A DNA stretch of 64,000 bases. Source: Candidatus Aalborgiella aggregata. Lineage in GTDB: Bacteria; Pseudomonadota; Gammaproteobacteria; Burkholderiales; Burkholderiaceae_C. Of the stretch, positions 4,122-57,455 are shown piece by piece. The stretch covers positions 149,545 through 213,544 of the forward strand of contig JADIYY010000002.1 of NCBI GenBank assembly GCA_016705065.1, read 5' to 3'. The position numbers and the translations under genes were made by a program. Below the pieces are notes generated by a model. It did no database searches and had not been told where the DNA came from. It worked only from the letters and a program-made list of their open reading frames with translations. Numbering within the stretch: the stretch's first letter is position 1; the number at the start of each line of letters is the position of its first letter.

Positions 4122-5723
4122 CAAGGCCGTATAGTCATTTTTCGGTTGCTGCGTGATTTGGTTAAGGCTGCCTGATTCAACAATTTCACCATTTCGCATC
4201 ACCAACACTTGGTGCGCCATAGCGCGAATGACGTCAATGTCGTGTGTGATGAGCAAATAACTTAAGCCACGCTCTCGTTGCAAACGCTGCAGCAATTGCA
4301 AAACTTGCTTTTGAATCGTCACATCCAAGGCACTGGTGGGTTCATCCAGTACCAAAATTTGTGGCTCCACGATCAAGGCACGGGCTATGGCTATGCGCTG
4401 GCGCTGACCACCCGAAAACTCATGCGGATAGCGTGACAATAAATTGGGAAACTGCGCTTCCGACAAACCAACCTCGTGTAAGGCTTGCAGCACCTTGGTT
4501 TGGCTTTGTACCTGATTGAATTCAGGTGCATGTACCAACAAGCCCTCACCCACCAATTCAGAAATGGTCATGCGTGGCGAGAGTGAAGAAAACGGGTCTT
4601 GAAAAACAACTTGCACCACCTTACGCAAACCTTTGTCTTGTGCTTTTCCTTGTCCCCAGAATTGACCATTGATTTGCAAATGTCCTTTAGAGGCTTGCAA
4701 ACCCAATGCAGCCAATGCCAATGTCGTCTTACCAGAACCAGATTCACCGATGACACCCAATGTTTGTGCTGGTTGCAATTCAAAATTAGCATGTTTAACA
4801 GCAACAAACTCACCCTTTTTAAACCACCCTTTGACGCCTGTCAGTGGTGCGGGGTAGCTGACACACAGATCCTTGGCTTGCATACTGGGCTGCTGGGTAA
4901 CGGTTGTGTTTTGGTCCTGCTGATTGATGACTGCGGAACTTTCAAGCACATCACGTACGGGCTTGCTGTCCAACAATTTACGGGTATAGGCGTGTTGTGG
5001 GTTGGCAAAAACATCACTGACAGTGCCTTGCTCGACGATGTGACCACCTTCCATCACAATAATGCGATCGGCAAACTTGCGCACCAAGTTCAAATCATGC
5101 GTGATCAACAATACCGCCATGCCGTTTTGTTTTTGTAGGCCTGATAGCAATTCCAAAATCTGCAATCGCAAGCTCACGTCCAGCGCAGTGGTGGGTTCAT
5201 CGGCTAACAACAATTTTGGCTGACAAGCCAAGGCCATGGCGATCATGGCACGTTGGCGTTGGCCACCACTCAATTGGTGCGGATACGACTTGGCGCATCG
5301 TTCAGGATCAGCGATACCTGTAGATGCTATCAATTTAATTGCAGTATAGGCAATATCTATACCAGATACAGCCTGCTTTTGTTCTAAAACTTCAGCAATT
5401 TGATTGCCGATGGTGAATAACGGATTCAAAGCCGTCATAGGTTCTTGAAATATCATGGCAATGTCGCGTCCACGTATGTCGCGCATTTGCTGTTCAGAAA
5501 TTTGAAGCAAGTCGATGCTTTGTGCGCCTCTGAATGTTGCTGAACCACTCAACTGCGCATTCAGTGCCAAGCGCAACAAGCTCAGCGCCGTGACTGTTTT
5601 ACCTGAACCCGATTCACCCACCAATGCCACACGCTCGCCAGCTTTCACTGCAAAGTTGATGCCATGAACAACCGCTTTGTTGCCAAAGGATACGGTTAAA
5701 TTTTGAACGTCGAGTAAATTCAT
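4110..5723 (-). CDS. yejF: ABC transporter ATP-binding protein with duplicated ATPase domains (YejF/microcin C-type peptide importer)
   Basis: Two Walker A motifs (GESGSGKT twice) and two LSGGQRQR signatures. Follows yejB and yejE in the same operon. Confidence 0.9.
5325..5385 (+). repeat. Dispersed hairpin repeat, copy J (inside yejF coding sequence)
   Basis: tgctatcaatttaattgcagtataggcaatatctataccagatacagcctgctttt aligns with the other copies. On the minus strand it translates to [19 protein letters not shown]. Confidence 0.8.
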
Positions 5724-6772
5724 TTTTCAACTTTGCGCGGATCTAAGGCATCTCTTAAAGCATCACCCATGAATGTCAGCAACATCAATGTAATGACCAA
5801 CACGCCAAACGTTGACAGCGAAATCCACCATGCGTCAATGTTGTTTTTACCTTGTGCCAACAGTTCACCTAAGCTAGGCGTTCCAGGCGGTACACCCAAA
5901 CCTAAAAAGTCCAAAGATGTCAGTGCCAAAATTGCACCACTCATGCGAAAGGGTAAAAACGTGACAACCGGCGTCATACTGTTGGGCAATACATGACGTT
6001 TGATAATTTGCCAATTGCTCACGCCTAAGGCACGTGCTGAACGCACATAATCCATTTGACGGTTGCGCAAAAATTCAGCTCGCACATAGTCTGACAAGCC
6101 CATCCAGCCAAACAGACTGAGCAAAATCAGCAACAAGGCCAAGCTTGGTGAAAACACTGCACTGAAAATAATAAGCAAATACAACTCAGGCATGGCACCC
6201 CAGATTTCAATAAAGCGTTGAAATGCCAAATCCGTTTTACCGCCATAAAAACCTTGTATGGCACCTGTGATAACTCCCAAAACCGTACCCACAATGGTGA
6301 GCGCCAGGGCAAACAGCACACTGACACGAAAGCCATATAAAAGCTGCGCCAATAGGTCACGACCTTTGTCATCCGTACCCAACCAGTTTTCACCTGAGGG
6401 CGCAGAGGGGTTGGGTGTGCTGGCGAAATAATTCAGTGTTTGTGCGCCATAGTGGTTGATTGGGAAAACTGCCCAATTGCCATCGCTTGACAATTTTTGC
6501 TGAATCAGAGGATCTAAATAATCGGTAGGCGTTTCAAAATCGCCTCCAAAAAATGTTTCCGGGTAATCTTTCAATATTGGAAAGTAATAGCTCTGTTTGT
6601 AGTGCACGAGCAAAGGTTTATCGTTGGACAAAACTTCTGCAAACAAGCTCAAAAATACCAATACACAAAACACCACAAAGCTGTAAAAGCCCAAACGATT
6701 ACGTTTAAAACGTTGCCAAGCACGACTGCTTGGTGAATTATTCAAACTTGACACGTGGGTCCACCCAAACAT
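5720..6772 (-). CDS. yejE: ABC transporter permease (YejE-type)
   Basis: Multi-TM BPD-transporter permease with a 4-bp overlap onto yejF. The exact start is uncertain: in-frame GTG at 6754 or TTG at 6745 would shorten the overlap with yejB. Confidence 0.85.
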   Translation of the reverse strand: MFGWTHVSSLNNSPSSRAWQRFKRNRLGFYSFVVFCVLVFLSLFAEVLSNDKPLLVHYKQSYYFPILKDYPETFFGGDFETPTDYLDPLIQQKLSSDGNWAVFPINHYGAQTLNYFASTPNPSAPSGENWLGTDDKGRDLLAQLLYGFRVSVLFALALTIVGTVLGVITGAIQGFYGGKTDLAFQRFIEIWGAMPELYLLIIFSAVFSPSLALLLILLSLFGWMGLSDYVRAEFLRNRQMDYVRSARALGVSNWQIIKRHVLPNSMTPVVTFLPFRMSGAILALTSLDFLGLGVPPGTPSLGELLAQGKNNIDAWWISLSTFGVLVITLMLLTFMGDALRDALDPRKVEK

Positions 6773-7757
6773 ACATCAAATCACTGATCAACTTCGTCAC
6801 CAAACCAATCAGGGTAAATAAATACAGCGTTCCCAACACCACAGGGTAATCTCGACGGATAACGCTTTCATAACTCAGCAAACCTAATCCATCCAACGAA
6901 AACAAGGTTTCTATTAAGAGCGATCCCGTGAAGAATGCACCGATGAACGCGGCAGGAAAACCAGTCACGATGGGTATCAAAGCGTTACGAAAAACATGTT
7001 TGTACAAAACTTGTTTTTCGGACAAGCCTTTGGCACGCGCAGTGGTGACATAGTGTTTGCGAATTTCTTCTAAAAATGCATTCTTGGTGAGCATGGTTGT
7101 AACAGCAAAACTGCCCAAGACCATGGCTGTAACGGGTAATACGATGTGCCACAAATAGTCCGCAATCTTTGCGCCCCAACTCAAAGTGTCCCAATTTGCC
7201 GATGTCAAACCTCGCAACGGAAACCATTGCAACTGTCCGCCAAAAACCACCAACAAGGCAACGCCCAATACAAACCCAGGAATGGCATACCCAAACAAAA
7301 CAACCAAGGTGGTGAAAAAGTCAAACCGCGAGCCTGCACGTACTGCTTTGGCAATACCCAAAGGAATTGAAATCAGATAGCTGATAAAAAAAGTCCATAA
7401 ACCCAAGCTGATTGAAACTGGTAATTTCTCTTTCACCAAATCCCATACTGGTTTGTGTTGAAAAAAACTCTTTCCCAAGTCGAAGCTGAGATAGGATTTG
7501 ATCATTATCCAAAACCGTTCAGGTGCCGGTTTATCAAACCCATACAGCGCTTTGATTTCAGCCAGACGTTTTTCGTCTACGCCCTTGCCACCTCGGTAAA
7601 TTGATTCACCACCCGCACCCGAGCTAGCCTTTGCCTCTGCTAGATATTGCTCAACAGGCCCACCGGGTACAAATTGAATAACGACAAAAGTGAGCAGCAG
7701 AACCCCAAACAAGGTGGGAATCATCAGCAAAAGACGTTTGAGAATGTAGCTCAGCAT
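6738..7757 (-). CDS. yejB: ABC transporter permease (YejB-type)
   Basis: N-terminus MLSYILKRLLLMIPTLFGV is typical of OppB/YejB permeases. It is the first gene of the minus-strand operon. Confidence 0.88.
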   Translation of the reverse strand: MLSYILKRLLLMIPTLFGVLLLTFVVIQFVPGGPVEQYLAEAKASSGAGGESIYRGGKGVDEKRLAEIKALYGFDKPAPERFWIMIKSYLSFDLGKSFFQHKPVWDLVKEKLPVSISLGLWTFFISYLISIPLGIAKAVRAGSRFDFFTTLVVLFGYAIPGFVLGVALLVVFGGQLQWFPLRGLTSANWDTLSWGAKIADYLWHIVLPVTAMVLGSFAVTTMLTKNAFLEEIRKHYVTTARAKGLSEKQVLYKHVFRNALIPIVTGFPAAFIGAFFTGSLLIETLFSLDGLGLLSYESVIRRDYPVVLGTLYLFTLIGLVTKLISDLMYVWVDPRVKFE

Positions 7758-9049: not shown

Positions 9050-10132
9050 ATGACACCGTCCACTTTGTTGACTTCTTTGCCGCGCTACATCTCCATCGCC
9101 GGTCCGACGGCATCGGGCAAAACGGCTGCCGCACTGGCCATTGCAGAGCATCTCAAAACCCGTATTCAGGTAGAGATCATCAGTGTTGATTCGGCTTTGG
9201 TGTACCGTGGCATGGACATTGGCACGGCCAAACCGACCGCTGCCGAGTTGGCCGTTGTACCGCACCACCTCATTGATATTCGCGACCCCATAGAAGCCTA
9301 TTCAGCCGCAGAATTTGTGAAAGACGCGACGCGTTTGATCAAGGAAATCACCGCACGCGGCAAACTGCCAGTGCTGGTGGGTGGCACCATGTTGTATCTC
9401 AAAGTCCTGTGGCACGGTTTAGATGACATGCCCGCTTCTAACCCCAGTATTCGTGCGAACATCGAACGCGAAGCCGCTATTACAGGCTGGCCAGCGATGC
9501 ACGCACAGCTCGCCCAGGTCGATGCCATTACTGCGGCACGATTAAAGCCCAATGACGCACAACGCATTCAGCGCGCACTAGAGGTGTACCGAATAACTGG
9601 TAAGCCGCTGTCCTCTTTTCAAACCGCTTACCGTGATACAGCGCCAAGCGCTATAAATTCAATAGCACCTCAGGCAATTAATACGCCGGCTATAGGCCAA
9701 AAAGACCATTATTTTTCTGAGAACAACAGCAATCCACTTTTCATCTCACTTGAACCGCAGGACCGTGCTTGGTTGCATGCGCGCATTGCACTGCGTTTTG
9801 ATGCCATGCTGGAGGGCGGATTTGAGCAAGAAGTGCGTGCATTGCGCGCCAGAGCCGATTTGAGCATTGACACCGCTTCAATGCGCTGCGTGGGTTACCG
9901 CCAAATGTGGGAAGCGCTGGATACTTTGAAAGATGGTGCGATGGATGCAAAAACCCTGCAAGACTTGCGCGACAAAGGCATTGCCGCCACGCGCCAACTG
10001 TGCAAGCGGCAATTGACATGGCTGCGCTCTATGCCCCAACGCCAAGCGATTGCTTGCGATGCACCCGATGCGCTTGCACAAGTATTGCAAGCAGTGGATA
10101 CTTGGGTGCAAACTGATGTGCAAACACATTAA
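9050..10132 (+). CDS. miaA: tRNA dimethylallyltransferase, carrying a repeat-derived in-frame insertion
   Basis: P-loop GPTASGKT and [16 protein letters not shown] motifs are present. At 360 aa it is about 40 aa longer than typical MiaA. Confidence 0.93.
9649..9720 (+). repeat. Dispersed hairpin repeat, copy A (in frame inside miaA)
   Basis: cgctataaattcaatagcacctcaggcaattaatacgccggctataggccaaaaagaccattattttt. It encodes [23 protein letters not shown]. Confidence 0.85.
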
Positions 10133-10156: not shown

Positions 10157-10894
10157 ATGAAGCCAAACGAATTGTTAAGTCTCGCCAAATTCAACAAAAA
10201 CGCTATACAAAAAATAGTATTCTTGGCAGTATTCATGCCGGCTACAATCACTTTTTGCCATGCTGCGAGCTTGACGGTGAATGTGACGGACAAAGATGGC
10301 AAGGCGACGCCCGATGCGGTGGTGATGATCAGCACCAGCAGCGTATCGTCACCCAAAAACCCACTGCCCAAAGCTGCCACCATTGCACAAACCAATATGC
10401 AGTTTTTGCCTGCAGTGACGGTGGTGCAGCCGGGCAGCAAAATCACCTTCACCAACAACGACCCTTGGGACCACCATGTGCGCGGCTCAGCTGCGGGTGC
10501 GGCACAGTTTGGTAAGAACGATGAAAACGGCTTTGCATTGCGACTGGCGGGTAAATCAGTGTTCGGTGCTGCCAAATCCAGTGTGGTGAACATGGACAAA
10601 CCTGGCGTGGTGCTATTGGGGTGTCACATCCATGGCTCTATGGTGGGGCATGTGGTGGTGAGCGACACGCCTTGGGCTGTTAAAACCGATGCCAATGGCA
10701 ATGCGGTGTTTGCCGATTTGCCAGATGGCGCTGCCACCGTCAAAGTGTGGCATGCTGCGCAATACATCGATTTGAAACCTGTACCAACCACACTGGGCGC
10801 AACGCCTGGCCAAATCAAAATGCAATTGACGGTGACACCACCGCCACGTCGTGCGCCGGCCAAACCGTCTGAATACGATAAATCAGTCGGGTAA
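10157..10894 (+). CDS. Secreted cupredoxin-like protein (often annotated 'methylamine utilization protein')
   Basis: Has a signal peptide. C-terminal motif GCHIHGSMVGHVVV has amicyanin-like C-x2-H-x2-M spacing, and there is an upstream His pair (DPWDHHV). Confidence 0.6.
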   Translation: MKPNELLSLAKFNKNAIQKIVFLAVFMPATITFCHAASLTVNVTDKDGKATPDAVVMISTSSVSSPKNPLPKAATIAQTNMQFLPAVTVVQPGSKITFTNNDPWDHHVRGSAAGAAQFGKNDENGFALRLAGKSVFGAAKSSVVNMDKPGVVLLGCHIHGSMVGHVVVSDTPWAVKTDANGNAVFADLPDGAATVKVWHAAQYIDLKPVPTTLGATPGQIKMQLTVTPPPRRAPAKPSEYDKSVG

Positions 10895-11798: not shown

Positions 11799-11813
11799 AA
11801 TCGTTACAATATA

Positions 11814-11880
11814 TGCTATATTATTAATAGCAAATTATGCAACAAATACGCCGGCTAGATGCCAATTTACTCACTAACTA
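11814..11880 (+). repeat. Dispersed hairpin repeat, copy B (map-glnD spacer, overlapping the glnD start)
   Basis: tgctatattattaatagcaaattatgcaacaaatacgccggctagatgcc. The glnD ATG (11837) lies inside it. Confidence 0.8.
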
Positions 11881-14431
11881 TCGGGATAAAAAGCAAATTA
11901 TCGGCAAACCTTTGCTGGTCAATTCCGCTTCCAGCCGTGGTGTAGCTGCGAATTTGCGCAAGCTGTCAAATCTGGCAGACGAAACACTGAAAACCTTGTG
12001 GCGCAGAGCCAATATGCCTGCAGATTTTGCTTTGCTGGCTGTGGGCGGTTTTGGTCGTGCGCAGCTATTCCCCCATTCAGACATTGATGTGCTCTTGCTA
12101 TTGCCCGACCACGCCAAACCGGAAACCGATGCGCTGCTGACACAAAAAATTGAATCGTTCATCAGCAGCTGCTGGGACAGTGGTTTAGAAATTGGTTCGT
12201 CAGTGCGCAATGTGGCCGACTGCGTGGCGCAAGCGGCAGGTGATGTGACGGTGCAAACCAGTTTATTGGAATCGCGCCTGATAGTCGGCAACAAAGGGCT
12301 TTATGCCACGTTTTTAGACGCTTTCAGAGACAACTTAGACCCTAAGGCATTCTTCGTGGCCAAAACCTTAGAAATGCGGCAACGGCATCAAAAGTTTGAA
12401 AACACACCCTACTCGCTGGAACCCAATTGCAAAGAATCACCCGGTGGTTTGCGCGATTTGCAAATCATATTGTGGGTGGCCAACGCAGCGAACTTGGGTA
12501 AAAACTGGGACGACTTGGCAAAAAATGGCTTGGCCACGCCGTTTGAAGTCAAGCAAATCAAAAGCAACGAAGCCACACTGAATTTAATACGTGCCCGCTT
12601 GCACAGCTTGGCACAAAGGCGCGAAGATCGTTTGGTTTTCGATCTACAAACAGTTGTCGCAGAATCATTCAATTACAAAAACGACAGCTCCAAATCCAAC
12701 AGCAGAGCCAGCGAACAACTGATGCGCCGCTACTACTGGGCTGCTAAAGCGGTGACGCAATTGAACCAGATTTTGCTGCTGAACATTGAAGCGCGCTTGA
12801 ATCCCAACACGCAAGATGTTCGCCCTATCAACGATTACTTTGGTGAAAAAGCAGGCATGTTGGAAGTGCTGCGCGACGATGTGTACACCCAGCACCCGCA
12901 TGCCATTTTGCAAACGTTTTTGCTGTACCAAACCACGCTGGGCATCAAGGGTCTATCCGCCCGCACCTTGCGCGCTTTGTACAACACACGCGAGGTGATG
13001 AACACCGCGTTTCGCAAAGACCCGGTGAACCGCGCCACCTTCATGGCGATTTTGCAGCAGCCTGAGGGTTTGACCCACGCCATGCGGCTGATGAACCAAA
13101 CATCGGTGCTGGGGCGCTATTTGTGGGTGTTTCGCAAAATTGTGGGGCAGATGCAGCATGATTTGTTCCACGTTTACACCGTTGACCAACACATCTTGAT
13201 GGTGCTGCGCAATATGCGGCGCTTTTTTATTCCTGAGCACGCGCATGAATACCCGCTGTGTTCGCAATTGGCTGCAGGTTGGGACAAGCCTTGGATTTTG
13301 TACACCGCTGCGCTGTTTCACGATATTGCCAAAGGCCGCGGTGGCGACCATTCGGCCTTGGGGCGCTTGGAAGTGCGTACCTTTTGCAAGCAGCATGGCA
13401 TTGACAAAATAGACACCAAGCTGATTGAGTTTTTGGTGGCTGAACATTTAACCATGAGCCAAATAGCGCAAAAACAAGACATGAGCGACCCCGATGTGGT
13501 CAACACATTTGCCAAGCGTGTGGGCAACGAACGTTATTTGACGGCTTTGTATCTGCTGACCGTGGCAGATATACGCGGCACATCACCCAAAGTATGGAAT
13601 GCATGGAAAGGCCGGCTCTTTGAAGATGCCTACAAAAGCACACTCAAAGCACTGGGTGGCCGCACGCCCGATGTGGACGCCCAAGTGCAAAGCCGCAAAG
13701 ACGATGCATTGGTGAATTTAGCCTTGCACGCCCAGCCTTTTGAAAGCCATAAAGTGCTGTGGGACACCTTGGATGTGAGCTACTTTATGCGCCACGATGC
13801 AGACACCATTGCGTGGCACACGCGTCAATTGTCGCGCCATGTTGGACAGAGCAAACCCGTGGTACGCGCCCGCACATCGCCCGTGGGTGAAGGCTTGCAG
13901 GTTGTGGTGTACACACCTGACCAAACTGATTTGTTTGCGCGCATTTGCGGATATTTTGACCAAGCCGGATTCAGCATTTTGGATGCCAAAGTGCACACCA
14001 CCAACGATGGCTGTGCGATAGACACCTTCCAAGTCGTCACTGCAAGTTTGCCAGAGCATTACCAAGAGTTGTCCAGCATGCTGGAGTTTGATTTGGCCCA
14101 CACCATTGAAGCGCAAGACACACTGCCTACACCTTCACGTGGCCGTGTTTCACGCCGTGTTAAAAGCTTTCCCATCACACCCAGGGTTGAACTCACCCCC
14201 GACGAAAAAGCCCAGCGCTGGCTGCTCAACATCTCCGCCAGCGACCGCACAGGTTTGTTGTACCGCATCGCATTGGTGTTGGCACGCTACAAGCTCGATT
14301 TGCAACTCGCCAAAATCACCACATTGGGCGAACGCGTTGAAGACACCTTCCTCATCACAGGCGCATCGCTGCAGCAAAACAAAGCGCAGATTGAGATTGA
14401 GACAGCGTTATTAGAAGCGATTGCGGATTAA
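11837..14431 (+). CDS. glnD: [protein-PII] uridylyltransferase / uridylyl-removing enzyme
   Basis: 864 aa. Nucleotidyltransferase motif GGFGRAQLFPHSDIDVLLL, an HD domain (LFHDIAKGRGGDH) and two C-terminal ACT-like regions. The start codon is uncertain because it lies within the repeat. Confidence 0.93.
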   Translation: MQQIRRLDANLLTNYRDKKQIIGKPLLVNSASSRGVAANLRKLSNLADETLKTLWRRANMPADFALLAVGGFGRAQLFPHSDIDVLLLLPDHAKPETDALLTQKIESFISSCWDSGLEIGSSVRNVADCVAQAAGDVTVQTSLLESRLIVGNKGLYATFLDAFRDNLDPKAFFVAKTLEMRQRHQKFENTPYSLEPNCKESPGGLRDLQIILWVANAANLGKNWDDLAKNGLATPFEVKQIKSNEATLNLIRARLHSLAQRREDRLVFDLQTVVAESFNYKNDSSKSNSRASEQLMRRYYWAAKAVTQLNQILLLNIEARLNPNTQDVRPINDYFGEKAGMLEVLRDDVYTQHPHAILQTFLLYQTTLGIKGLSARTLRALYNTREVMNTAFRKDPVNRATFMAILQQPEGLTHAMRLMNQTSVLGRYLWVFRKIVGQMQHDLFHVYTVDQHILMVLRNMRRFFIPEHAHEYPLCSQLAAGWDKPWILYTAALFHDIAKGRGGDHSALGRLEVRTFCKQHGIDKIDTKLIEFLVAEHLTMSQIAQKQDMSDPDVVNTFAKRVGNERYLTALYLLTVADIRGTSPKVWNAWKGRLFEDAYKSTLKALGGRTPDVDAQVQSRKDDALVNLALHAQPFESHKVLWDTLDVSYFMRHDADTIAWHTRQLSRHVGQSKPVVRARTSPVGEGLQVVVYTPDQTDLFARICGYFDQAGFSILDAKVHTTNDGCAIDTFQVVTASLPEHYQELSSMLEFDLAHTIEAQDTLPTPSRGRVSRRVKSFPITPRVELTPDEKAQRWLLNISASDRTGLLYRIALVLARYKLDLQLAKITTLGERVEDTFLITGASLQQNKAQIEIETALLEAIAD

Positions 14432-14451
14432 ATACCGAATCTGATTGTGGT

Positions 14452-15203
<752 letters not shown>

Positions 15204-15229
15204 ACTTGATGTGCATACAAAGCAATAGC

Positions 15230-17925
<2,696 letters not shown>

Positions 17926-18424: not shown

Positions 18425-18492
18425 AAAAATATATGGAAAATTTGGCTGTAGCCATTGTTTTGATTGCCTATGCCGCTATTATATTCATAGCA
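18425..18492 (-). repeat. Dispersed hairpin repeat, copy I (reverse orientation, convergent GNAT/zipA spacer)
   Basis: The reverse complement reads tgctatgaatataatagcggcataggcaatcaaaacaatggctacagccaaattttccatatattttt. Confidence 0.85.
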
Positions 18493-18525
18493 ATTAAGAT
18501 ATTTATAAAAGTACCACAGTCACAT

Positions 18526-19632: not shown

Positions 19633-19676
19633 ATATTCAATACATTATCTGCAAAGATACCAGCACCCATGCGCTT

Positions 19677-23261: not shown

Positions 23262-24246
<985 letters not shown>

Positions 24247-24250
24247 CCTT

Positions 24251-28830: not shown

Positions 28831-29801
28831 ACACGACGATGCAAGAAAGCTGGGCTCAACCTTTAACGGTGACAGAAGCCATAGAAAAAGGCGCTCAGTT
28901 ACTGACCAAAGCCGGCGTATCTTTCGGACATGGCACATTGAACGCTTGGGATGAAGCTGCTTGGTTGGTGCTGTGGCAATTGGGTTTACCTCTAGATACG
29001 CCTCTAGATACGCCTTCTGACACGCCTTTAAATGCCAATACTGAAAGCGCTGATTCAAACAATATTTATATACAAAATCAGCCTGTATCCGGCCTAGATA
29101 TTGCCAAGATTGCTATACTTTTTGAAGCACGTATCACAACACGCAAACCCGCTGCGTATTTGACGCAAGAAGCTTGGTTGCAAGGCGTTCCTTTTTATAT
29201 CGACGAACGCGCCATCGTACCGCGCAGCCACATTGCACAACTGTTAGCGGACGGCAGTTTTGATGATTGGCTGGGGCCGCACACGCAACAGGTTTTGGAC
29301 ATGTGCACTGGCAATGGCAGTTTGGCTGTATTGGCAGCGATGACCTACCCAGAAACCCATGTGACAGGCGCAGATATCTCCTTCGATGCATTGGCGGTGG
29401 CACACATCAACGTTGCCAAACACCACATGCAAAATCGCATCAACTTGATTGAGTCCAACGGCTGGAACGCATTGCAAGGGCAAGTGTTCGATTTGATTTT
29501 GTGCAACCCTCCCTACGTCAACAGCCAAAGCATGAAAGTCCTGCCCTCTGAATATTTGGCAGAGCCCGATTTGGCTTTGGCCGGTGGCTATGACGGCATG
29601 GACTTTATTCGCACCTTCTTTGCGAGTGCCAGTAAACACATGAGTGAGCATGCTGTCATCGTTTTAGAAATAGGCAATGAACGCGACTATTTCGAAAAAG
29701 CCTTTCCCGATTTGGCAGTTGATTGGCTAGAGACAGCAGCGGGATGGGACCAAGTGTTGTTGGTGACAAAAAATGCTTTGCAAAATCACTTGAATCAGTG
29801 A
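28827..29801 (+). CDS. prmB: 50S ribosomal protein L3 N5-glutamine methyltransferase, with repeat-derived insertions
   Basis: NPPY motif (LILCNPPYV), SAM-binding DMCTGNG and IVPRS. 4-bp overlap with dapE. Confidence 0.9.
28989..29024 (+). repeat. 12-bp tandem repeat x3 inside prmB (encodes [12 protein letters not shown])
   Basis: cctctagatacg / cctctagatacg / ccttctgacacg. Confidence 0.9.
29065..29129 (-). repeat. Dispersed hairpin repeat, copy K (reverse orientation, in frame inside prmB)
   Basis: tttatatacaaaatcagcctgtatccggcctagatattgccaagattgctatactttttgaagca matches the reverse complement of the consensus. It encodes [22 protein letters not shown]. Confidence 0.8.
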
Positions 29802-31719: not shown

Positions 31720-32330
31720 GACAGACGTTCAAAAACCGCATCACGCACTTTGGCTCTCAATCTTTCTATGCTGTACTTCCATGTGTCACCGATCTTTTTG
31801 GGCGGCACATCATTCGCAGTCGCTCGCACATAGCCGGTGGCTTGCACACCTTGTTCCCATTGGTAAAGTTCGTAGTCAAAACCGTGCGGATTGCTGTTGC
31901 CATGAATGGCTTTGAGCCGCACCGTCATTTGCCAGCGTTCGCCTGGCTTGATGGTTTGCGGTTTGCCTTGCAGCTCAAATTGAGGTACAGGCATGGTTGT
32001 TGCGGCTGAAGTGGCTACAGACGTGTTGGCTTCGGTTCGGTATGCGCCGCTGTACCAACTCAGTTCAATCAGCTTTGGCAATTTGACTGCAGTTTCAATT
32101 TCTGCTTGCTCGACTGCGAACCGAAACCGCAAACCCACTTCACTTTGTTGCGGCATGGCGGCAACGATGCCTGTCACTTGAATGTCTTTGCCCTCCAGTT
32201 CAGCGGGCAAGGCTTGCGCGCTGTACACACTGGCACGCCAACCAGTGACACCAAACGCCATACCGGCCAAGGCCATGCTAAGTATGCTGACATGCAGTGG
32301 TGGAAAGCGCTTTATCCACGTATTTTTAAT

Positions 32331-32397
32331 TGCTATATATTTAATAGCACTATAGGCAATCAATACGCCTGATACAGCCGAAATAGCCATATATTTA
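32331..32397 (+). repeat. Dispersed hairpin repeat, copy C (in frame in the comEC N-terminal region)
   Basis: tgctatatatttaatagcactataggcaatcaatacgcctgatacagccgaaatagccatatattt. It encodes KYMAISAVSGVLIAYSAIKYIAIKN. Confidence 0.85.
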
Positions 32398-32499
32398 TGG
32401 ATATCAAACAATATCGGCTGCCACAGCTGCCCAGCGCTGCCCAAGACCCATGCCAGCAAACTGGGCATCATGTTTGTCGCCCAATATTTAGCCGACTAT

Positions 32500-33807: not shown

Positions 33808-34989
33808 TTAACGTCCTGCCGCCGCCACAGTCAATGCGGCCAAAGATTCTTCCAAACCAGGAATCGATAGGTTCGCCAACTGTGCTTGTGATTGCTGCAA
33901 CAAACCCAATGCTTGCTTTGCAGCGGGCGCACTTGCGTCTGTATACTTGCGCAAATCGGCGTTGACCATTGCCAAGTCCGATTTGGCACTGCCGAACTGG
34001 CGGCTCAACACACCCATGCGTGCATTGAGCACCCGCAGCTTCATGTTTTCGCGCAAGAAGAAGGTTTGCTCAGGTGACTGCAATACTGCATCCGGGTGCG
34101 CGATTTGGCTCACACGCACCAGCTTGCCCGATTCTGCACGCACTGCCAACCAAATTTGTTGCAGCCACGCTGAGACTGTGTTTTGCAGGTCATTCGCGAC
34201 ACTGGCCGTCTTGGTTGGCTTGATGTCCTTACCAGCATTGCTGCCAGTTGCTTGACCACTCTCAGACTTTGCAAGTGGTGATGCGGCTGTGTCGGCTTGT
34301 TTGGATCCCACCGCATTGCTGGCTGGTAGCGTATCGATCAATTGCGTTAATTCGTCTAACTTGCCCATCAAATTCGGTACGTCAGTCACTGTGGCGGCTT
34401 TGATGCGCTGTGCATCGTTGCTCAAGGCGCGTTTTACTGTGTTCAGGCGTGGTTGGGCTGATTTGGCTAAACGCACATCGGCCGATTTCAGCGCAGCCAA
34501 AAGCGGCTCCACACTGCCGGTTAACTGAGCTTGCTGTTGTGCCAGTCGCAAGGCCGATTCAATGTCCACCACCAAATTTTCATCACGCGAACGCGACAGG
34601 CTTTGCATCAACTCGTCCAACTGGCTGCGTTGCAAAGCCACTTCACTCAATTTGGTTTCGTTCAATGACGATCTGGCCACTGCTTCACGCGCCAGTTCTT
34701 GCGCGTTTTTGGCCAAGCTGCGCGCTTCGATGCTAATGGTACTGGCATCGGCACTTTGGCGCGCCAAATGTTCTTGAATGCCATTCAATTTACGCCACAA
34801 ATAGGCTGTGGCCAATATGGATATTGCCAATGCCGCTATGGTTGCGATAGCAAGTTTGGGATATTGACTGAATACATTGCGCCCTGCAAACTGATTGGCA
34901 GACCCCATCGTTGCAGCCTTATCGGTGACTGCATCTTGCTCAGGAGATGGATTGTCTGAATGTGCGGGAATTTGGGCGGCTTCGGTCAT
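33808..34989 (-). CDS. hemX: HemX-like protein (annotated uroporphyrinogen-III C-methyltransferase family)
   Basis: The start I chose (MTEAAQ..., 34989) makes an ATGA overlap with the hemD stop. Has a single TM segment followed by a long coiled region. The ORF-track start at 35118 would overlap hemD by 130 nt. Confidence 0.75.
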   Translation of the reverse strand: MTEAAQIPAHSDNPSPEQDAVTDKAATMGSANQFAGRNVFSQYPKLAIATIAALAISILATAYLWRKLNGIQEHLARQSADASTISIEARSLAKNAQELAREAVARSSLNETKLSEVALQRSQLDELMQSLSRSRDENLVVDIESALRLAQQQAQLTGSVEPLLAALKSADVRLAKSAQPRLNTVKRALSNDAQRIKAATVTDVPNLMGKLDELTQLIDTLPASNAVGSKQADTAASPLAKSESGQATGSNAGKDIKPTKTASVANDLQNTVSAWLQQIWLAVRAESGKLVRVSQIAHPDAVLQSPEQTFFLRENMKLRVLNARMGVLSRQFGSAKSDLAMVNADLRKYTDASAPAAKQALGLLQQSQAQLANLSIPGLEESLAALTVAAAGR

Positions 34990-35824
34990 ACCAGTGATTC
35001 TATAGAAGTCACCACATCGGAAAGCAGCGGGCGTGACTCGCAAACAACACCAAAACCCACTCGTCTGGCCGCTTCTGCAATGCGCGGGTGTGTCGCAATG
35101 GCTTTGGATTTTGACCAATCGATTTGTTTCGCTGCGTTGTGCAAATTGTCAATCGCCTCAGAACTGCTGAACAACCAAACCGACCCATCGCGGCTGGCTT
35201 CTGCAATCCATGCCATTTGCTCAACAGTAAACACAGGCGCACGTCGCTCGTAACTCACCACCGTGTCAACTTGCACGCCTGCACTTGTGAGCTGGTCTGC
35301 CAACCAAGGACGGCCATTCATTAGGGTTTCATTCTCGACAGAGCTTTGTTGTGTGGTGCCGCGAACGATGAGCACCCGATCGCCCGCTTTGACTTGGCCG
35401 CGCACACGTTCCCACAAAGCTTCAGAATCAAATTGCGCAGCATCATTCGCTGGCGCATCAATCAAATGGGTAGCTATGCCTGCTGCCAACAATGCTTTGG
35501 CGGTACCAGGTCCAGTAGCCCAATAGCGCGGTGTTTCAATTGACTGATCGCTTAATGCTATATTATTGATAGCACTGTAGGCAATATTTACGCCGGCTAC
35601 AGCCTGATTTTTCATATAAAAATGGCGCACAGCGTTGCTGCTGACAAACATGATGGCAGCGTAGTGTGACGCATTGTCTCTGCAACAGCATTTGCGACCA
35701 CTTGAGAGTCTTTTGCAGCAGCAATTTCAATCAATGGCAAGGCGATGGCATCTAAACCTTTGGCTTGCAACTGTGCCACCCAAGTTTGCGCTTCTGCCAG
35801 CGGTCGGGTGACGATGACTTTCAT
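34986..35824 (-). pseudogene. hemD: uroporphyrinogen-III synthase HemD, frame interrupted (N-terminal ORF 35612-35824, C-terminal ORF 34986-35651) and carrying a repeat insertion
   Basis: The N-terminal ORF begins MKVIVTRPLAEAQTW. The C-terminal ORF contains the conserved MFVSSNAVRHF motif. The frames differ by +2/-1 at the cacac (plus-strand gtgtg) site 35664-35668. Confidence 0.8.
35556..35620 (+). repeat. Dispersed hairpin repeat, copy D (in frame inside hemD)
   Basis: tgctatattattgatagcactgtaggcaatatttacgccggctacagcctgatttttcatataaa. It encodes FYMKNQAVAGVNIAYSAINNIALSD. Confidence 0.88.
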
Positions 35825-41948: not shown

Positions 41949-42470
41949 CTAATCATCTTCCCCTGCACTGGCCACCACTTTATGAATCACCTCTGCGCCA
42001 AATCCACGGCTGAGTAAAAAGCGTATTTGCTTGGCACGCTCCTTGGCACTTTCCTTCGCATCTGCGGGTGAGCTTTGCGTTGGCGTGCCAAATTTTTTGC
42101 GCCACACCTCACGTGCTCTTTCCAGTTCTGTGCTTTTGAGCAAATCGACAGCATCCAAGACAGCGCCAGCATCCAAGCCTTTGCTTTGCAATTCTTGCTT
42201 GATGCGCGCCGTGCCCAGCTTGGCACTTCTGCGGTGCAAAACCGAATCCACCACGCGCTGCTCGTTGATGAAATCTTTGGCTTGCAACTCGTCCAAGGCT
42301 TTGTCCAATTCGCCAGGCGATGCTTCAAAGGGTTTGAGCTTTTTCACCAACTCGGCGCGCGAGTATTCGCGCCCACTCAAAAGCCGCAAGGCGCGGCCTT
42401 TGAGTGAAACGGTAAAACCTATAGGTGTATGTTTTGTTTTTTCCGTTGCATTATTTGCTATATTATTCAT
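41949..42470 (-). CDS. recX: recombination regulator RecX
   Basis: Downstream of recA. SLKGRALRLLSGREYSRAELVKKL matches the RecX helical repeat. The ATG lies inside repeat copy E, so the start is uncertain. Confidence 0.85.
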   Translation of the reverse strand: MNNIANNATEKTKHTPIGFTVSLKGRALRLLSGREYSRAELVKKLKPFEASPGELDKALDELQAKDFINEQRVVDSVLHRRSAKLGTARIKQELQSKGLDAGAVLDAVDLLKSTELERAREVWRKKFGTPTQSSPADAKESAKERAKQIRFLLSRGFGAEVIHKVVASAGEDD

Positions 42471-42520
42471 AGCAAGCTAGGCAATTAATACACCAGATAC
42501 AGGCCAATTTTTCATATAAA
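42456..42520 (+). repeat. Dispersed hairpin repeat, copy E (recA-recX spacer, overlapping the recX start)
   Basis: tgctatattattcatagcaagctaggcaattaatacaccagatacaggccaatttttcatataaa. Confidence 0.88.
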
Positions 42521-42535
42521 ACACCTGTTCAATCC

Positions 42536-47752: not shown

Positions 47753-47759
47753 AACTACC

Positions 47760-48398
47760 ATGGCTTGGACTCAAGATCAAATGGCCGCACGCGCGGCGCA
47801 AGAATTGCAAGACGGTTTTTATGTCAATTTAGGTATTGGCATTCCCACGCTGGTGGCCAACCATGTACCTGACCACGTCGAAGTTTGGTTGCAAAGTGAA
47901 AATGGCATGTTGGGCATTGGTCCATTCCCCTACGAAGATGAAGTCGATGCCGACCTCATCAATGCTGGCAAACAAACCGTCACCACCATCAAAGGCTCAT
48001 CCATTTTTGGCAGCCACGAAAGCTTCGCCATGATTCGTGGCGGCAAAATCAACCTCAGCATTTTGGGCGCGATGCAGGTCAGCGAAAAAGGCGATTTGGC
48101 CAACTGGATGATTCCTGGCAAGATGGTCAAAGGCATGGGCGGCGCCATGGATTTGGTGGCAGGTGTCAAACGTGTCATCATTTTGATGGAGCACGTTGCT
48201 AAGAAGAAAGACGGCACCATTGATTTGAAAATTTTGCCCCAATGCACCTTGCCACTCACCGGCTTGGGCGTGGTGGACCGCATCATCACCGACTTGGCTG
48301 TGATGGACGTGACCGAAGCAGGATTGAAAGTCGTTGAACTCGCGCCCGATGTGACTTTAGAGGAATTGCAGTCTAAAACGGGTGTGAAGCTGATTTAA
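47760..48398 (+). CDS. scoB: 3-oxoacid CoA-transferase subunit B
   Basis: Starts [30 protein letters not shown] and has the SENG catalytic-Glu motif. The ORF-track start at 47640 overlaps scoA and is not used. Confidence 0.9.
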
Positions 48399-48420
48399 CG
48401 CTAATAATGCGTAGTTAGCC

Positions 48421-48488
48421 AAAAATTTATACGAAATCTGGCTATAGTCAGTGTATTTATTACCTAGTGTGCTATTAAATATATAGCA
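48421..48488 (-). repeat. Dispersed hairpin repeat, copy H (reverse orientation, convergent scoB/acs spacer)
   Basis: The reverse complement reads tgctatatatttaatagcacactaggtaataaatacactgactatagccagatttcgtataaattttt. Confidence 0.85.
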
Positions 48489-48498
48489 TTATCAATGT

Positions 48499-55165: not shown

Positions 55166-55211
55166 GTGTCACATTATGAGCGCAGAGCTTGACATCTACA
55201 TGACTAAATTT

Positions 55212-55270
55212 TGCTATATATTTTATAGCAATATAGGCAATCAATACACCGCATAAGTCCATTTTTTGGC
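55212..55270 (+). repeat. Dispersed hairpin repeat, copy F (divergent pat/epimerase spacer)
   Basis: tgctatatattttatagcaatataggcaatcaatacaccgcataagtccatttttt. Confidence 0.85.
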
Positions 55271-56433: not shown

Positions 56434-57279
56434 ATGAGTCCCCTTTCATTAATGCGTCCTGCCCGACAAAAGACCTTGTTTTGCATCATCGGGAATTTGC
56501 GCGGCGGAGATATGCCGTACAACTCTTACTTAGAAAATTTCGGAGACGACTGCGATCTTTGTCTGTGTGTTGGCAATAGCTACCAAGACTCTCCTTGGCG
56601 ACAGCACGCCAAATACATTTGGGAGATTGACGAAACAGACACTCAGGTCTGGGAAATGACCTATGACGGCGTTTCCAAAGAATGGAGAACGCATAATCAT
56701 CTGGAAAACTTGTGGGGACCGTATCAGGGGCTGAAAGGTTCAGGCATGATCATCTGTTCGTTCCGCCAAAAGCTGTACGAAAATTTGATAAAGTTGCCTA
56801 TGGTGTATGACAGGTATGTCTTAACTCGAGCCGATCATTATTATGTTTCGAATTTCCTTCCCACCGTAAAACCGGGCAGTATCTATATACCAATAGGAGA
56901 AGAATATGGAGGTGTCACTGACCGGTTCTCAGTGGCGGATAGGGAGACATTCCTGCGTAGCCTACTTATCATCCCTTTTATTATTCAAAATCCGAATCTG
57001 TTCAACAATGTAGAACAATATTTGAAGGCGTTCTACAGATCTTCCAGTATGAAAATTGTGAAATACCGGCGCAACATGTATACGGTTGGAAGAAAAGACG
57101 AACAAACACGTTGGCAAACCGTCAGTCAACAAGAAGCGCCACATGGAGGTGGCGAATATTTTCTGAAGTATCCTTCAGAATTTGCGTTGATCAACAAATC
57201 CCTACTTTCGCGAACCATCAAAAGGGTAAAAGGTCGCGCGATGGCGATGTTAGCAAGGCTATCAGTCCCACGCGCATGA
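56434..57279 (+). CDS. hypothetical protein (no family recognised; possible sugar-modifying partner of the epimerase)
   Basis: 281-aa ORF co-oriented 60 nt after the epimerase. No TM segment or signal peptide. Codon usage is atypical for the window. Confidence 0.6.
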   Translation: MSPLSLMRPARQKTLFCIIGNLRGGDMPYNSYLENFGDDCDLCLCVGNSYQDSPWRQHAKYIWEIDETDTQVWEMTYDGVSKEWRTHNHLENLWGPYQGLKGSGMIICSFRQKLYENLIKLPMVYDRYVLTRADHYYVSNFLPTVKPGSIYIPIGEEYGGVTDRFSVADRETFLRSLLIIPFIIQNPNLFNNVEQYLKAFYRSSSMKIVKYRRNMYTVGRKDEQTRWQTVSQQEAPHGGGEYFLKYPSEFALINKSLLSRTIKRVKGRAMAMLARLSVPRA

Positions 57280-57391
57280 GCAGATAGGAAAAGCTCAGAT
57301 CCTGCAAATCATGGTTAGATTTTGCAAATCACCAAATGCATGCACAAGTCATACTTTTTGATAGCTGATGAAAACAATAATACTCTCACAA

Positions 57392-57455
57392 TGCTATAAA
57401 TTTAATAGCGCATTAGGCAATTAATACGCCGCCTACAGCCTAATTTTATCATTAT
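57392..57455 (+). repeat. Dispersed hairpin repeat, copy G (convergent spacer after the hypothetical gene)
   Basis: tgctataaatttaatagcgcattaggcaattaatacgccgcctacagcctaattttatcattatttt. Confidence 0.85.

What the first reader, a model, noticed from the sequence alone, without database searches (positions are those of the whole stretch)
5325..57455. Unrecognised ~65-bp hairpin repeat family, at least 11 copies in 64 kb, in intergenic and coding positions
Eleven loci share a sequence I can align by eye.

- Approximate consensus: TGCTATATATTTAATAGCACTATAGGCAATCAATACGCCGGCTACAGCC-N-AATTTTTCATATAAA.
- Copies: 5325, 9649, 11814, 18425(rc), 29065(rc), 32331, 35556, 42456, 48421(rc), 55212, 57392.
- The 5' end is a 6-bp inverted repeat (TGCTAT-N7-ATAGCA), preserved in most copies.
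- A second small palindrome, GGCTAnAGCC, follows.
- That is roughly one copy per 6 kb of core housekeeping DNA.
- Intergenic copies favour convergent 3' ends (GNAT/zipA, scoB/acs, hypothetical/small ORF) or operon spacers (map-glnD, recA-recX).
- No transposase is nearby, so a MITE/REP-like non-autonomous element is the simplest model.

I do not recognise it as REP/BIME, ERIC, Correia/NEMIS, RUP, BOX or RPE.
Basis: seen in the sequence. Interest (0 to 1): 0.8.

Follow-up and report, generated by a model that had tools for sequence, protein, structure and literature searches.

The report
Old hairpin repeat, also inside genes
A roughly 75-base DNA repeat, undescribed in the libraries and literature I could search, occurs about once every 5 kb in a group of cold-freshwater Polaromonas-like bacteria, sits both between genes and, translated, inside essential genes, and appears to have been kept for a very long time, much like the Rickettsia palindromic elements.

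Summary
All 11 reported copies are real, and two weaker ones were found (13 in about 62 kb of genuine sequence).

- **Distribution.** The same repeat occurs in about 20 other Polaromonas-like genomes of roughly 50% G+C, at about one copy per 5.3 kb. Copies often sit at orthologous positions.
- **Anatomy.** The unit is about 75 bp. It has a conserved block TAGCCGGCGTATTnATTGCCT followed by an invariant GCTAT-N7-ATAGC hairpin.
- **Class.** It is not a classical MITE or REP. I found no terminal inverted repeats, no target-site duplication, no GC-rich palindrome, no partner transposase and no Rfam match.
- **Context.** Intergenic copies favour gene 3' ends: 41% lie between convergent genes and 9% between divergent genes.
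- **Coding copies.** One fifth to one half lie inside genes and are translated in four of the six frames. Examples are miaA, yejF, comEC, hemD and valS.
- **Length change.** Some coding copies add residues. Others replace native residues with little or no change in protein length.
- **Conservation.** Conserved columns change several times more slowly than fourfold-degenerate sites, while variable columns change at the neutral rate.

Best reading: an ancient, vertically inherited dispersed repeat that behaves like a Rickettsia palindromic element and is probably kept as a site for a trans-acting protein. The mobilising or reading factor is unknown.

The parts
5321..5395 (-). Divergent copy inside yejF-like double ABC ATPase (ORF 4110-5723, minus strand). 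Same orientation as the gene and translated as ...[18 protein letters not shown]...
   Evidence: nhmmer E 1.2e-6 with a profile built from other genomes. Pfam ABC_tran. Colinear with Rv1281c and DppD with no net length change. Carried by all 120 closest homologues. Outgroups at 50-65% identity have a native LA...A...AIxLLA helix here.
9646..9717 (-). Copy inside miaA (ORF 9050-10132, plus strand). Antisense to the gene and translated as [19 protein letters not shown]...
   Evidence: E 1e-15. E. coli MiaA 2zm5 aligns up to residue 200 and resumes at 201, leaving about 27 extra residues in the window protein. The same copy is present in L073, L113 and L115.
10196..10259 (-). Weak, decayed copy in the 5' part of a cupredoxin-like ORF (10157-10894, plus strand)
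   Evidence: E 2e-5. Pfam Copper-bind. No hit at the orthologous gene in L113. Least certain part.
11810..11885 (-). Copy in the map-glnD operon spacer, antisense to both genes. It overlaps the first ATG of the glnD ORF.
   Evidence: E 2.3e-15. Orthologous copies in L113 and L115 share the site-specific variant TTGCATA.
18425..18497 (+). Copy between convergent GNAT acetyltransferase (17963-18394, plus) and zipA (18526-19632, minus)
   Evidence: E 2.4e-14. Orthologous copy in L010 with the same unusual loop TTATATT.
29062..29130 (+). Divergent copy inside a HemK/PrmB-like methyltransferase (28827-29801, plus). Same orientation as the gene and translated as ...[17 protein letters not shown]...
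   Evidence: E 3.1e-7. Colinear with the T. maritima HemK N-terminal domain, with no obvious extra length.
32326..32397 (-). Copy in the 5' end of comEC (30153-32471, minus). Same orientation as the gene and translated as ...AVSGVLIAYSAIKYIA...
   Evidence: E 9.4e-15. Pfam Competence/DUF4131. A decayed orthologue in L117 has GCTGT...ACAGC, a compensatory change in the hairpin.
34785..34858 (+). Weak copy inside hemX (33808-35118, minus), antisense to the gene
   Evidence: E 1.3e-3. An equally weak orthologue at the same place in L117.
35552..35626 (-). Copy inside hemD. Same orientation as the gene and translated as ...YMKNQAVAGVNIAYSAINNIA...
   Evidence: E 7.1e-16. Pfam HEM4. The reading frame is shown. 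Orthologue in L117.
42450..42525 (-). Copy in the recA-recX spacer, same orientation as both genes. The recX ORF's first ATG lies in its hairpin.
   Evidence: E 4.5e-14. Orthologues in L046, L110 and L117.
48419..48493 (+). Copy between convergent scoB (47640-48398, plus) and acs (48570-50567, minus)
   Evidence: E 7.1e-14. The same spacer in L117 is only 19 nt and holds no copy.
55207..55270 (-). Copy in the divergent spacer between an acyl-CoA synthetase/acetyltransferase gene (52484-55165, minus) and an epimerase gene (55322-56374, plus)
   Evidence: E 4.3e-12. Pfam assignments.
57390..57459 (-). Copy between convergent ORF 56434-57279 (plus) and an FMN-binding protein gene (57728-58345, minus)
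   Evidence: E 7.7e-17, the best window copy. Pfam assignments.

Best explanation
This is an ancient, clade-specific family of short non-autonomous dispersed repeats. It behaves like the Rickettsia palindromic elements (RPEs).

**History (largely shown).**
- It multiplied before the radiation of a Polaromonas-like lineage of about 50% G+C, to roughly one copy per 5 kb.
- Since then it has been inherited vertically.
- Copies survive where they do least harm: after gene 3' ends, and inside genes where the repeat can be translated. In some genes it adds a loop; in others it stands in for a native helix or strand.

**Maintenance (partly shown).** The conserved core, TAGCCGGCGTATTnATTGCCT plus the GCTAT-N7-ATAGC hairpin, changes several times more slowly than neutral sites.

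**Mechanism (inferred).**
- The core is the recognition site of a trans-acting protein. That protein is either the enzyme that once copied the repeat or a host factor that now uses it.
- Several features point to a hairpin-recognising enzyme of the kind that works without duplicating its target, for example an HUH/Y1-type enzyme. They are the absence of inverted ends and target duplications, a single end hairpin, and the asymmetric tolerance of its two arms.
- Alternatively, single-strand patches could anneal at microhomology.
- Classical cut-and-paste transposition looks least likely.

**Shown versus inferred.** Family, anatomy, distribution, context bias, in-frame translation, orthology and slow core evolution are shown. 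Mobile origin is shown only indirectly. The protein partner and the copying mechanism are inferred.
For: **Family and anatomy**
-.
- About 72 bits of information in the core.

**Spread and density**
- One copy per 5.3 kb in loci not chosen by the pattern.

**Non-coding by design**
- All six frames of the consensus contain a stop codon (read directly from the consensus).

**Context**
- 62 convergent, 13 divergent, 44 co-oriented tandem, 32 anti-oriented tandem.
- 43 intragenic, split 22 co-oriented and 21 antisense.

**Translation within genes**
- Four frames are used, giving recurrent peptides: AVAGVFIAxxAIKNIA, AINxIAxQAINTPA, SSRRIxCLxSY and YxxNSxLGNKYAGY.

**Presence/absence polymorphism**
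- The HI0933-like flavoprotein is empty in the window and in outgroups, and filled with +8 to +45 residues in most relatives.
- L075 is filled and L082 empty.
- The scoB/acs spacer is filled in the window and empty in L117.
- Two copies flank a lineage-specific ggt gene in L120.

**Vertical inheritance with site-specific variants**
-.

**No recent bursts**
-.

**Constraint**
- Three loci fetched through a protein, not through the repeat, have fourfold-site identity of 0.43-0.51. In the intergenic darP|moaB copy, pairwise identity is 0.87 in high-information columns, 0.81 in middle columns and 0.44 in low-information columns.
- Window against other unbiased loci: 0.83, 0.82 and 0.51, against fourfold identity of 0.33-0.60, mostly about 0.56-0.60.

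**Hairpin asymmetry**
- C to T in the 3' arm occurs 29 times. G to A in the 5' arm occurs twice.
Against: - No terminal inverted repeats, no target-site duplications and no autonomous partner or half-copies were seen in 0.84 Mb. Mobility therefore rests on presence/absence and dispersion only.
- No fresh insertion with clean junctions was found.
- In yejF the repeat occupies a conserved ABC-domain segment with no change in length.
- In valS about 17 of 24 repeat-encoded residues overlay a native helix.
- In one genome (L110) the flavoprotein copy replaces the conserved RWQPC motif at near-constant length. Simple insertion does not predict any of these three cases.
- The constraint estimates rest on few independent sites. 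About half of them are coding, where protein selection also acts.
- My first estimate, 95% identity in conserved columns, was inflated because those loci had been chosen by an exact match to the conserved columns.
- No covariation supports the hairpin as a folded structure, apart from one compensatory pair in L117.
Confidence: 0.55

Rival explanations
1. The repeat is a host-functional DNA signal rather than selfish DNA. It would be a dispersed binding site for a clade-specific DNA-binding protein, for example a nucleoid-organising, repair, recombination or methylation-linked factor. Selection keeps it at roughly 5-kb intervals, so in gene-dense stretches it is accommodated inside coding sequence.
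For: - Conserved columns evolve several times more slowly than fourfold sites, while variable columns evolve neutrally. This holds in a purely intergenic orthologous triple.
- Orientation is independent of transcription: 22 against 21 in genes, and 44 against 32 in tandem spacers.
- Some coding copies are kept at the cost of native conserved residues (L110; yejF).
- In one genome, GCA_975104325.1, all orthologous copies score far lower although its neutral distance is the same as that of a genome with strong copies. Loss of a reading factor would produce this.
- The conserved sequence has no need of folding.
Against: - No candidate protein was identified.
- Copies often cluster within 0.3-1 kb, so spacing is not regular.
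- The bias to 3' ends and the presence/absence polymorphisms are what selfish DNA shows.
- A signal of about 72 bits is far more specific than known chromosomal site families need.
- The lineage-wide decay rests on 34 kb of one MAG.
Confidence: 0.25
2. The repeat is a cis-acting RNA element: a terminator, an mRNA 3'-end stabiliser as proposed for REP, or a small RNA.
For: - It is enriched after gene 3' ends and between convergent genes.
- The three copies seen in high-G+C relatives lie just after stop codons and are co-oriented with the upstream gene.
- It has a hairpin with A/T-rich flanks.
- The wobble-compatible asymmetry of hairpin changes falls on one strand.
Against: - The hairpin has only 5-6 A/T-rich pairs, about -3.7 kcal/mol in the alignment fold, with no covariation.
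- Single-sequence folds are not clearly better than shuffles, with z scores of -0.9 to -2.1.
- Terminator-like and promoter-like sites are not enriched and do not coincide consistently with copies.
- There is no Rfam match even at E up to 1.
- Orientation is nearly random relative to transcription, and many copies are inside ORFs.
- The most conserved block, TAGCCGGCGTATT, is unpaired.
Confidence: 0.07
3. The repeat is a DNA-uptake-type signal that spreads by biased uptake and recombination ('molecular drive'), as with Neisseria DUS and Pasteurellaceae USS. Copies would arise in place by mutation and replacement rather than by insertion.
For: - Copies lie in coding sequence with no length change (yejF) or with native residues retained under the hairpin.
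- Copies are stable at orthologous sites.
- Copies occur in both orientations and favour 3' ends.
- comEC and a PilT-like ATPase are present in the window.
Against: - The motif is about 60-75 bp and about 72 bits, at one copy per 5 kb. By my recollection, known uptake signals have 9-12 bp cores at about one per kb.
- Such a motif cannot plausibly arise stepwise.
- Clear net insertions exist: miaA +27 residues, and the flavoprotein up to +45.
- Competence genes are widespread and not specific evidence.
Confidence: 0.04
4. The similarity is chance A/T-rich resemblance, or an artefact of the assembly.
For: The window does contain assembly junk and a probably artefactual frameshift in hemD.
Against: - E-values reach 8e-17 with an independent profile.
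- Zero matches are expected in shuffles.
- Hundreds of copies occur in independent assemblies from different projects.
- The junk blocks do not overlap any copy.
Confidence: 0.01

Closest known systems
Rickettsia palindromic elements (RPEs; Ogata et al. 2000 and 2002, as summarised in review PMC10969869)
   Same: - Short, non-autonomous and dispersed.
- Found both between genes and inside unrelated housekeeping genes, where they are translated in frame as extra peptide segments.
- Shared at orthologous positions by related species.
- No known transposase, inverted ends or target duplication.
- Old and apparently no longer bursting.
   Different: - Unrelated host: a free-living betaproteobacterial lineage, not an obligate intracellular alphaproteobacterium.
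- About 75 bp rather than about 100-150 bp.
- Not palindromic over its length. It has one small end hairpin plus an unpaired conserved block.
- Its consensus is closed in all six frames.
- Several coding copies replace native residues with little or no change in length.
- Sequence relationship to RPE families could not be tested here, because no RPE library was available.
REP/BIME and REPIN elements mobilised by RAYT (Y1/HUH) transposases (PMC3733652)
   Same: - High copy number.
- A hairpin is the most conserved feature.
- Preference for gene 3' ends.
- No inverted ends or target duplications.
- A strand-specific hairpin would suit a single-strand HUH enzyme.
   Different: - By definition REPs are 20-40 bp G+C-rich palindromes with a terminal GTAG or CGTC tag, and they are extragenic.
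- Here the stem is 5-6 A/T-rich pairs.
- The [G/C]TAG lies about 20 nt away inside an unpaired block and is variable.
- One fifth to one half of copies are intragenic.
- No RAYT gene was seen, although only a small part of each genome was examined.
Bacterial MITEs such as Correia/NEMIS and ERIC/RU-1, including intragenic ERIC copies that carry ORFs (PMC2759123, PMC10969869)
   Same: - Small, non-coding and multi-copy.
- No transposase.
- Occasional in-frame intragenic copies.
- Presence/absence differences between relatives.
   Different: - No terminal inverted repeats.
- No target-site duplication.
- No related insertion sequence found.
- Much older and more uniformly diverged than typical MITE bursts.
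DNA uptake sequences (Neisseria DUS, Pasteurellaceae USS)
   Same: - Abundant in both coding and non-coding DNA.
- Stable at orthologous sites.
- Tolerated in particular reading frames.
- Able to overwrite coding sequence without changing its length.
   Different: - About six times longer and far more information-rich.
- About five times rarer.
- Clear net insertions exist.
- No evidence of uptake bias.
[quoted passage not shown] This is a mechanism, not an element family.
   Same: Ectopic single strands anneal at microhomology and replace a short patch, giving microindels of variable size. That would produce repeat copies that overlay partly similar native sequence with small net length changes, as seen in yejF, valS and the flavoprotein gene.
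   Different: - SPDIR is described as a rare mutational process, not as the means of spread of a repeat family.
- Nothing here shows that it operated.

Membership tests
MITE (miniature inverted-repeat transposable element) | Small, multi-copy, no transposase gene | tested here: met
   About 75 bp. 13 copies in the window and about 250 in 775 kb of related loci. All six frames of the consensus are closed (read from the consensus).
MITE (miniature inverted-repeat transposable element) | Terminal inverted repeats | tested here: not met
   End-anchored profiles of 199 copies show only AATTT...AAATT. The inverted repeat GCTAT-N7-ATAGC lies wholly at one end.
MITE (miniature inverted-repeat transposable element) | Target-site duplication flanking each copy | tested here: not met
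   There is no excess of shared 4-6-mers or of matched 6-mers between left and right flanks over shuffled pairings. The best of 594 offsets was z 3.8, with 1.77 against 1.53 matches of 6. The copies are old, so a very short duplication could have decayed.
MITE (miniature inverted-repeat transposable element) | A related autonomous insertion sequence with the same ends | tested here: inconclusive
   No half-copies bracketing an ORF in 0.84 Mb. No transposase among the annotated window genes. Only a few per cent of each genome was seen.
MITE (miniature inverted-repeat transposable element) | Presence/absence polymorphism at orthologous sites | tested here: met
   Flavoprotein gene empty or filled. 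L075 against L082. scoB/acs spacer. ggt flanks in L120. The junctions are not clean.
REP / REPIN | 20-40 bp G+C-rich imperfect palindrome | tested here: not met
   Only a 5-6 bp A/T-rich stem is supported. The rest is unpaired.
REP / REPIN | Conserved GTAG or CGTC tetranucleotide at one end (PMC3733652) | tested here: not met
   [G/C]TAG is internal, about 20 nt from the hairpin, and varies among CTAG, GTAG and GTAT.
REP / REPIN | Extragenic location | tested here: not met
   43 of about 194 scored copies, and 5-7 of the 13 window copies, lie inside ORFs.
REP / REPIN | RAYT (Y1 transposase) gene in the genome, flanked by the repeats | not tested
Rickettsia palindromic elements | In-frame presence within unrelated protein-coding genes, translated with the host protein | tested here: met
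   miaA +27 residues against 2zm5. Also yejF, hemD, comEC, the methyltransferase, valS and the flavoprotein.
Rickettsia palindromic elements | Palindromic over most of its 100-150 bp length | tested here: not met
Rickettsia palindromic elements | Sequence homology to an RPE family | not testable with these tools
   No RPE library was available. The host clade is unrelated.
DNA uptake sequences (DUS/USS) | Short core (9-12 bp) at about one per kb | tested here: not met
   About 72 bits over about 59 columns, at one copy per 5.3 kb.
DNA uptake sequences (DUS/USS) | Preferential uptake of DNA carrying the signal | not testable with these tools
   This needs a transformation assay.
Any Rfam RNA family | Match to a curated covariance model | tested here: not met
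   No match at gathering thresholds in the window. None at E up to 1 in L111, which holds two strong copies.

The most novel reading that the evidence does not exclude
The repeat is the genome-wide cis-site of a clade-specific trans-acting system, and selection or drive actively maintains it. It is installed by patch-type replacement at microhomology rather than by transposition. As a result it can overwrite parts of essential genes without changing their length. Its decay in one lineage marks the loss of that system.
Probability: 0.2. Interest if true: 0.8.

Novelty: new variant of a known kind. Interest (0 to 1): 0.5.

Why it matters
**What the finding adds**
- It gives a second, independent and much more accessible example of the Rickettsia phenomenon: short repeats living inside essential genes. 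This one is in an abundant free-living freshwater and cryosphere lineage with many genomes at graded distances.
- That range of distances makes two old questions testable. How do such repeats enter genes without destroying them? Are they merely tolerated, or are they kept?
- The series of alleles of a single gene is direct material for studying how repeats remodel proteins. The series runs from empty, through overlaid at constant length, to +8 and up to +45 residues.

**Practical consequences**
- At about 1.5% of the genome, the repeat will confuse gene start calls. The first ATGs of the recX and glnD ORFs lie inside copies, and the comEC start is ambiguous because of its copy.
- It may also affect assembly and binning in these MAG-rich datasets.

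Tried and rejected
1. **Rfam.** No match at gathering or permissive thresholds.
2. **Promoter or terminator function.** Consensus scans found no more sites than in shuffles and no consistent overlap with copies.
3. **A second hairpin.** AAATATGCC/GGCGTATTT folds in the consensus, but it is paired in only 43-83% of copies with almost no compensatory change.
4. **Target-site duplications.** Two different tests were negative.
5. **Orientation against local GC skew**, as a proxy for replication direction. No link: 121 against 99. The test is weak on 8-kb pieces.
6. **Half-copies or an autonomous parent.** None found.
7. **Plasmid or phage carriage.** No BLAST match in the plasmid or phage collections. 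Only 3 pattern hits in 2.9 million viral contigs.
8. **A built-in ORF.** My first idea was that the repeat encodes a signal peptide or transmembrane ORF (MKN-AVAGVLIAYSAIKYIA). Rejected, because the clade consensus has stops in all six frames and four different frames are used in genes.
9. **The first conservation estimate.** The figure of 95% in conserved columns is discounted, because those loci had been selected by an exact match to the same columns. I replaced it with loci fetched through proteins.
10. **yejF as the progenitor of the family.** Considered because the yejF copy causes no length change. Set aside, because valS, the flavoprotein gene and the methyltransferase show the same overlay in other frames.
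11. **The Polaromonas JS666 MITE** cited in review PMC10969869. The paper is not held, so identity with that element could not be checked.

Full report
**1.
- A 19-nt probe for the hairpin end hit 9 of the listed positions, against 0 expected in shuffles.
- The 11 sequences align over about 66 nt with a sharp boundary after ...ATAGCA.
- To avoid circularity I built a profile only from copies found in other genomes. It recovers nine window copies at E 8e-17 to 4e-12.
- It also recovers the two divergent copies, 29062-29130 at 3e-7 and 5321-5395 at 1e-6.
- It finds two further weak ones, 10196-10259 at 2e-5 and 34785-34858 at 1e-3.
- The window has two blocks of poly-G/poly-C junk, at 14440-15210 and 23270-24250. 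These are assembly artefacts and explain the '63% G+C islands'. They do not touch the copies.

**2. The family is genome-wide and shared by a clade.**
- Nearly all are MAGs labelled Polaromonas sp., Comamonadaceae or Burkholderiaceae, from glacier-fed streams and similar waters.
- The median G+C of these loci is 51%.
- nhmmer finds about 250 copies in those 775 kb.
- In 190 kb from eight genomes that were not selected through the repeat, density is one copy per 5.3 kb. Extrapolated, that is several hundred copies per genome.
- A few copies occur in high-G+C relatives, directly after stop codons.
- Plasmid and phage collections give no BLAST match, and the viral-contig scan gave only three pattern hits in 2.9 million contigs.
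- Rfam gives nothing at either threshold.
- I found no description of this sequence in the literature. A MITE reported in Polaromonas JS666 (cited in PMC10969869) could not be read.

**3. Anatomy.**
- The core carries about 72 bits of information.
- The only supported pairing is GCTAT-N7-ATAGC. It is paired in 96-100% of 226 copies and is invariant in sequence, with a variable loop and no covariation.
- A second hairpin predicted for the consensus is not kept across copies.
- The hairpin tolerates change asymmetrically. C to T in the 3' arm occurs 29 times, while G to A in the 5' arm occurs twice. Because orientation is random relative to transcription, this asymmetry belongs to the element itself.
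- There are no terminal inverted repeats beyond AATTT/AAATT, no target-site duplication and no half-copies.
- All six reading frames of the consensus contain a stop codon, read directly from the consensus.

**4. Where copies sit.**
- Crude gene calls give 43 intragenic copies, 22 co-oriented with the gene and 21 antisense.
- Intergenic copies divide into 62 between convergent genes, 13 between divergent genes, and 44 plus 32 between tandem genes.
- In the window, six copies are intergenic: map-glnD, GNAT/zipA, recA-recX, scoB/acs, one divergent spacer and one more convergent spacer.
- Five strong and two weak copies are inside genes: yejF, miaA, a HemK-like methyltransferase, comEC and hemD, and weakly a cupredoxin gene and hemX.
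- No transposase is among the annotated window genes (synteny).

**5. Intragenic copies are translated.**
- Across the data set, copies lie in long open frames in four of the six frames.
- They give recurrent peptides: AVAGVFIAxxAIKNIA, SSRRIxCLxSY, AINxIAxQAINTPA and YxxNSxLGNKYAGY. The consensus stop codons are mutated away in each case.
- MiaA has about 27 extra residues exactly at the copy, between residues 200 and 201 of E. coli MiaA.
- The HI0933-like flavoprotein gives a full allelic series:
  - empty in the window, its nearest relatives and high-G+C outgroups (...GGYQIDSD...);
  - +8 residues in L111;
  - +20 to +45 residues in most relatives;
  - in L110, a copy that nhmmer still detects but that leaves the protein only one residue longer, having replaced the conserved RWQPC motif.

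**6. An unexpected regularity: overlay.**
- In several genes the hairpin end of the repeat coincides with native residues that outgroups lacking the repeat also have.
- In the flavoprotein, Y-x-I-[ND]-S of the native protein is encoded by GC TAT nnn ATn nAT AGC, which is the hairpin itself.
- In ValRS, the repeat-encoded IAKGAIDSVA aligns with the native helix of T. thermophilus ValRS. The net gain is 7 residues for a 24-codon copy.
- In YejF there is no net gain at all. All 120 closest homologues carry the copy. Outgroups at 50-65% identity have a native L-A-x3-A-x3-A-I-x-L-L-A segment there.
- Plain insertion does not predict this. Three readings fit:
  - insertion followed by selected deletions;
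  - insertion targeted next to hairpin-like sequence;
  - patch replacement at microhomology, as described for SPDIR (bioRxiv 10.1101/2023.11.22.568220).
- I could not discriminate between them.

**7. Age and maintenance.**
- Copies are at orthologous positions and share site-specific variants across genomes.
- Pairwise identity within a genome (0.72-0.75) equals that between genomes. So there have been no recent bursts and no genome-specific homogenisation.
- My first rate estimate was biased by how the loci had been chosen.
- With loci fetched through proteins instead, the window against four loci from three genomes gives 0.83, 0.82 and 0.51 identity in high-, middle- and low-information columns. 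Fourfold-site identity for those comparisons is 0.33-0.60, mostly about 0.56-0.60.
- In a three-way comparison of deep lineages, fourfold identity is 0.43-0.51, and all four shared sites keep their copy.
- The purely intergenic darP|moaB copy in that comparison gives 0.87, 0.81 and 0.44.
- Variable columns therefore drift neutrally, while the core is held.
- The sample is small and half of it is coding. I rate in-place constraint as likely, not proven.
- In one genome, GCA_975104325.1, every orthologous copy is much weaker although its neutral distance is the same. That is what loss of a trans-acting reader would produce, but it rests on 34 kb.

**8. Interpretation.**
- The best-supported account is an ancient, vertically inherited family of non-autonomous repeats. 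It behaves like the Rickettsia palindromic elements, and its core is kept as a protein recognition site.
- It fails the defining tests for MITE (inverted ends, duplications), REP (G+C-rich palindrome, terminal tag, extragenic location) and uptake sequences (length, density).
- I therefore do not file it under any of these. It works most like an RPE.
- The main rival is that it is primarily a host-functional DNA signal. The two readings merge if a selfish repeat was domesticated.
- RNA-level function is poorly supported.

**9. Verdict.**
- The repeat is real, undescribed as far as I could check, and more interesting than an ordinary MITE because of the in-gene copies, the overlay pattern and the signs of maintenance.
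- It still belongs to a known general kind, and its mechanism is unresolved.

Noticed in passing
window 14440-15210 and 23270-24250: Two blocks of almost pure poly-G/poly-C with scattered other bases. These are assembly artefacts, and they explain the two 63% G+C peaks and the 'all six frames open' ORFs there. In related genomes, glnD and def are separated by only about 28 nt (L113).
   Followed up: yes
window about 35700-35720 (hemD, minus strand): hemD is split between two reading frames about 80 nt upstream of its repeat copy. The orthologue in L117 is an intact 277-residue gene, so this is probably a sequencing or assembly frameshift rather than a pseudogene.
   Followed up: partly
L120 18767-18838 and 20626-20699: A gamma-glutamyltranspeptidase gene (18858-20588) is flanked by two strong repeat copies in the same orientation. 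L118 and L119 lack the gene and both copies in the same moaB-to-hexapeptide-transferase spacer. The repeat may mark, or mediate, gene gain.
   Followed up: partly
L119 17164-17288: This spacer holds a different, G+C-rich inverted repeat with arms containing ATTCCC-N8-GGGAAT. From memory, that is the pattern of Neisseria dRS3 repeats. I did not examine it further.
   Followed up: no
L115 and L117 (GCA_975104325.1): Every orthologous repeat copy in this genome scores far lower than in the window or in GCA_035329845.1: for example hemD 11 against 54 bits, and comEC 13 against 50 bits. Fourfold-site divergence is the same (0.57 against 0.56). This suggests lineage-wide relaxation.
   Followed up: partly
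L078 7846-7921; L032 7331-7400; L003 3040-3111: Single repeat copies occur in 61-68% G+C relatives (Rhodoferax, Burkholderiales, Polaromonas MAGs). Each lies just after a stop codon and is co-oriented with the upstream gene. The Rhodoferax copy is the best-scoring of all (70 bits). It could reflect recent transfer or a binning error.
   Followed up: partly
window 42470 (recX), 11837 (glnD), 32471/32395 (comEC): The first in-frame start codons of the recX and glnD ORFs lie inside repeat copies. The comEC start is ambiguous for the same reason. Automatic start calls in these genomes are likely to be affected.
   Followed up: no
window 26470-27612 and 30153-32471: A PilT-like type II/IV secretion ATPase and comEC are present, so the lineage has at least part of a DNA-uptake apparatus.
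   Followed up: no
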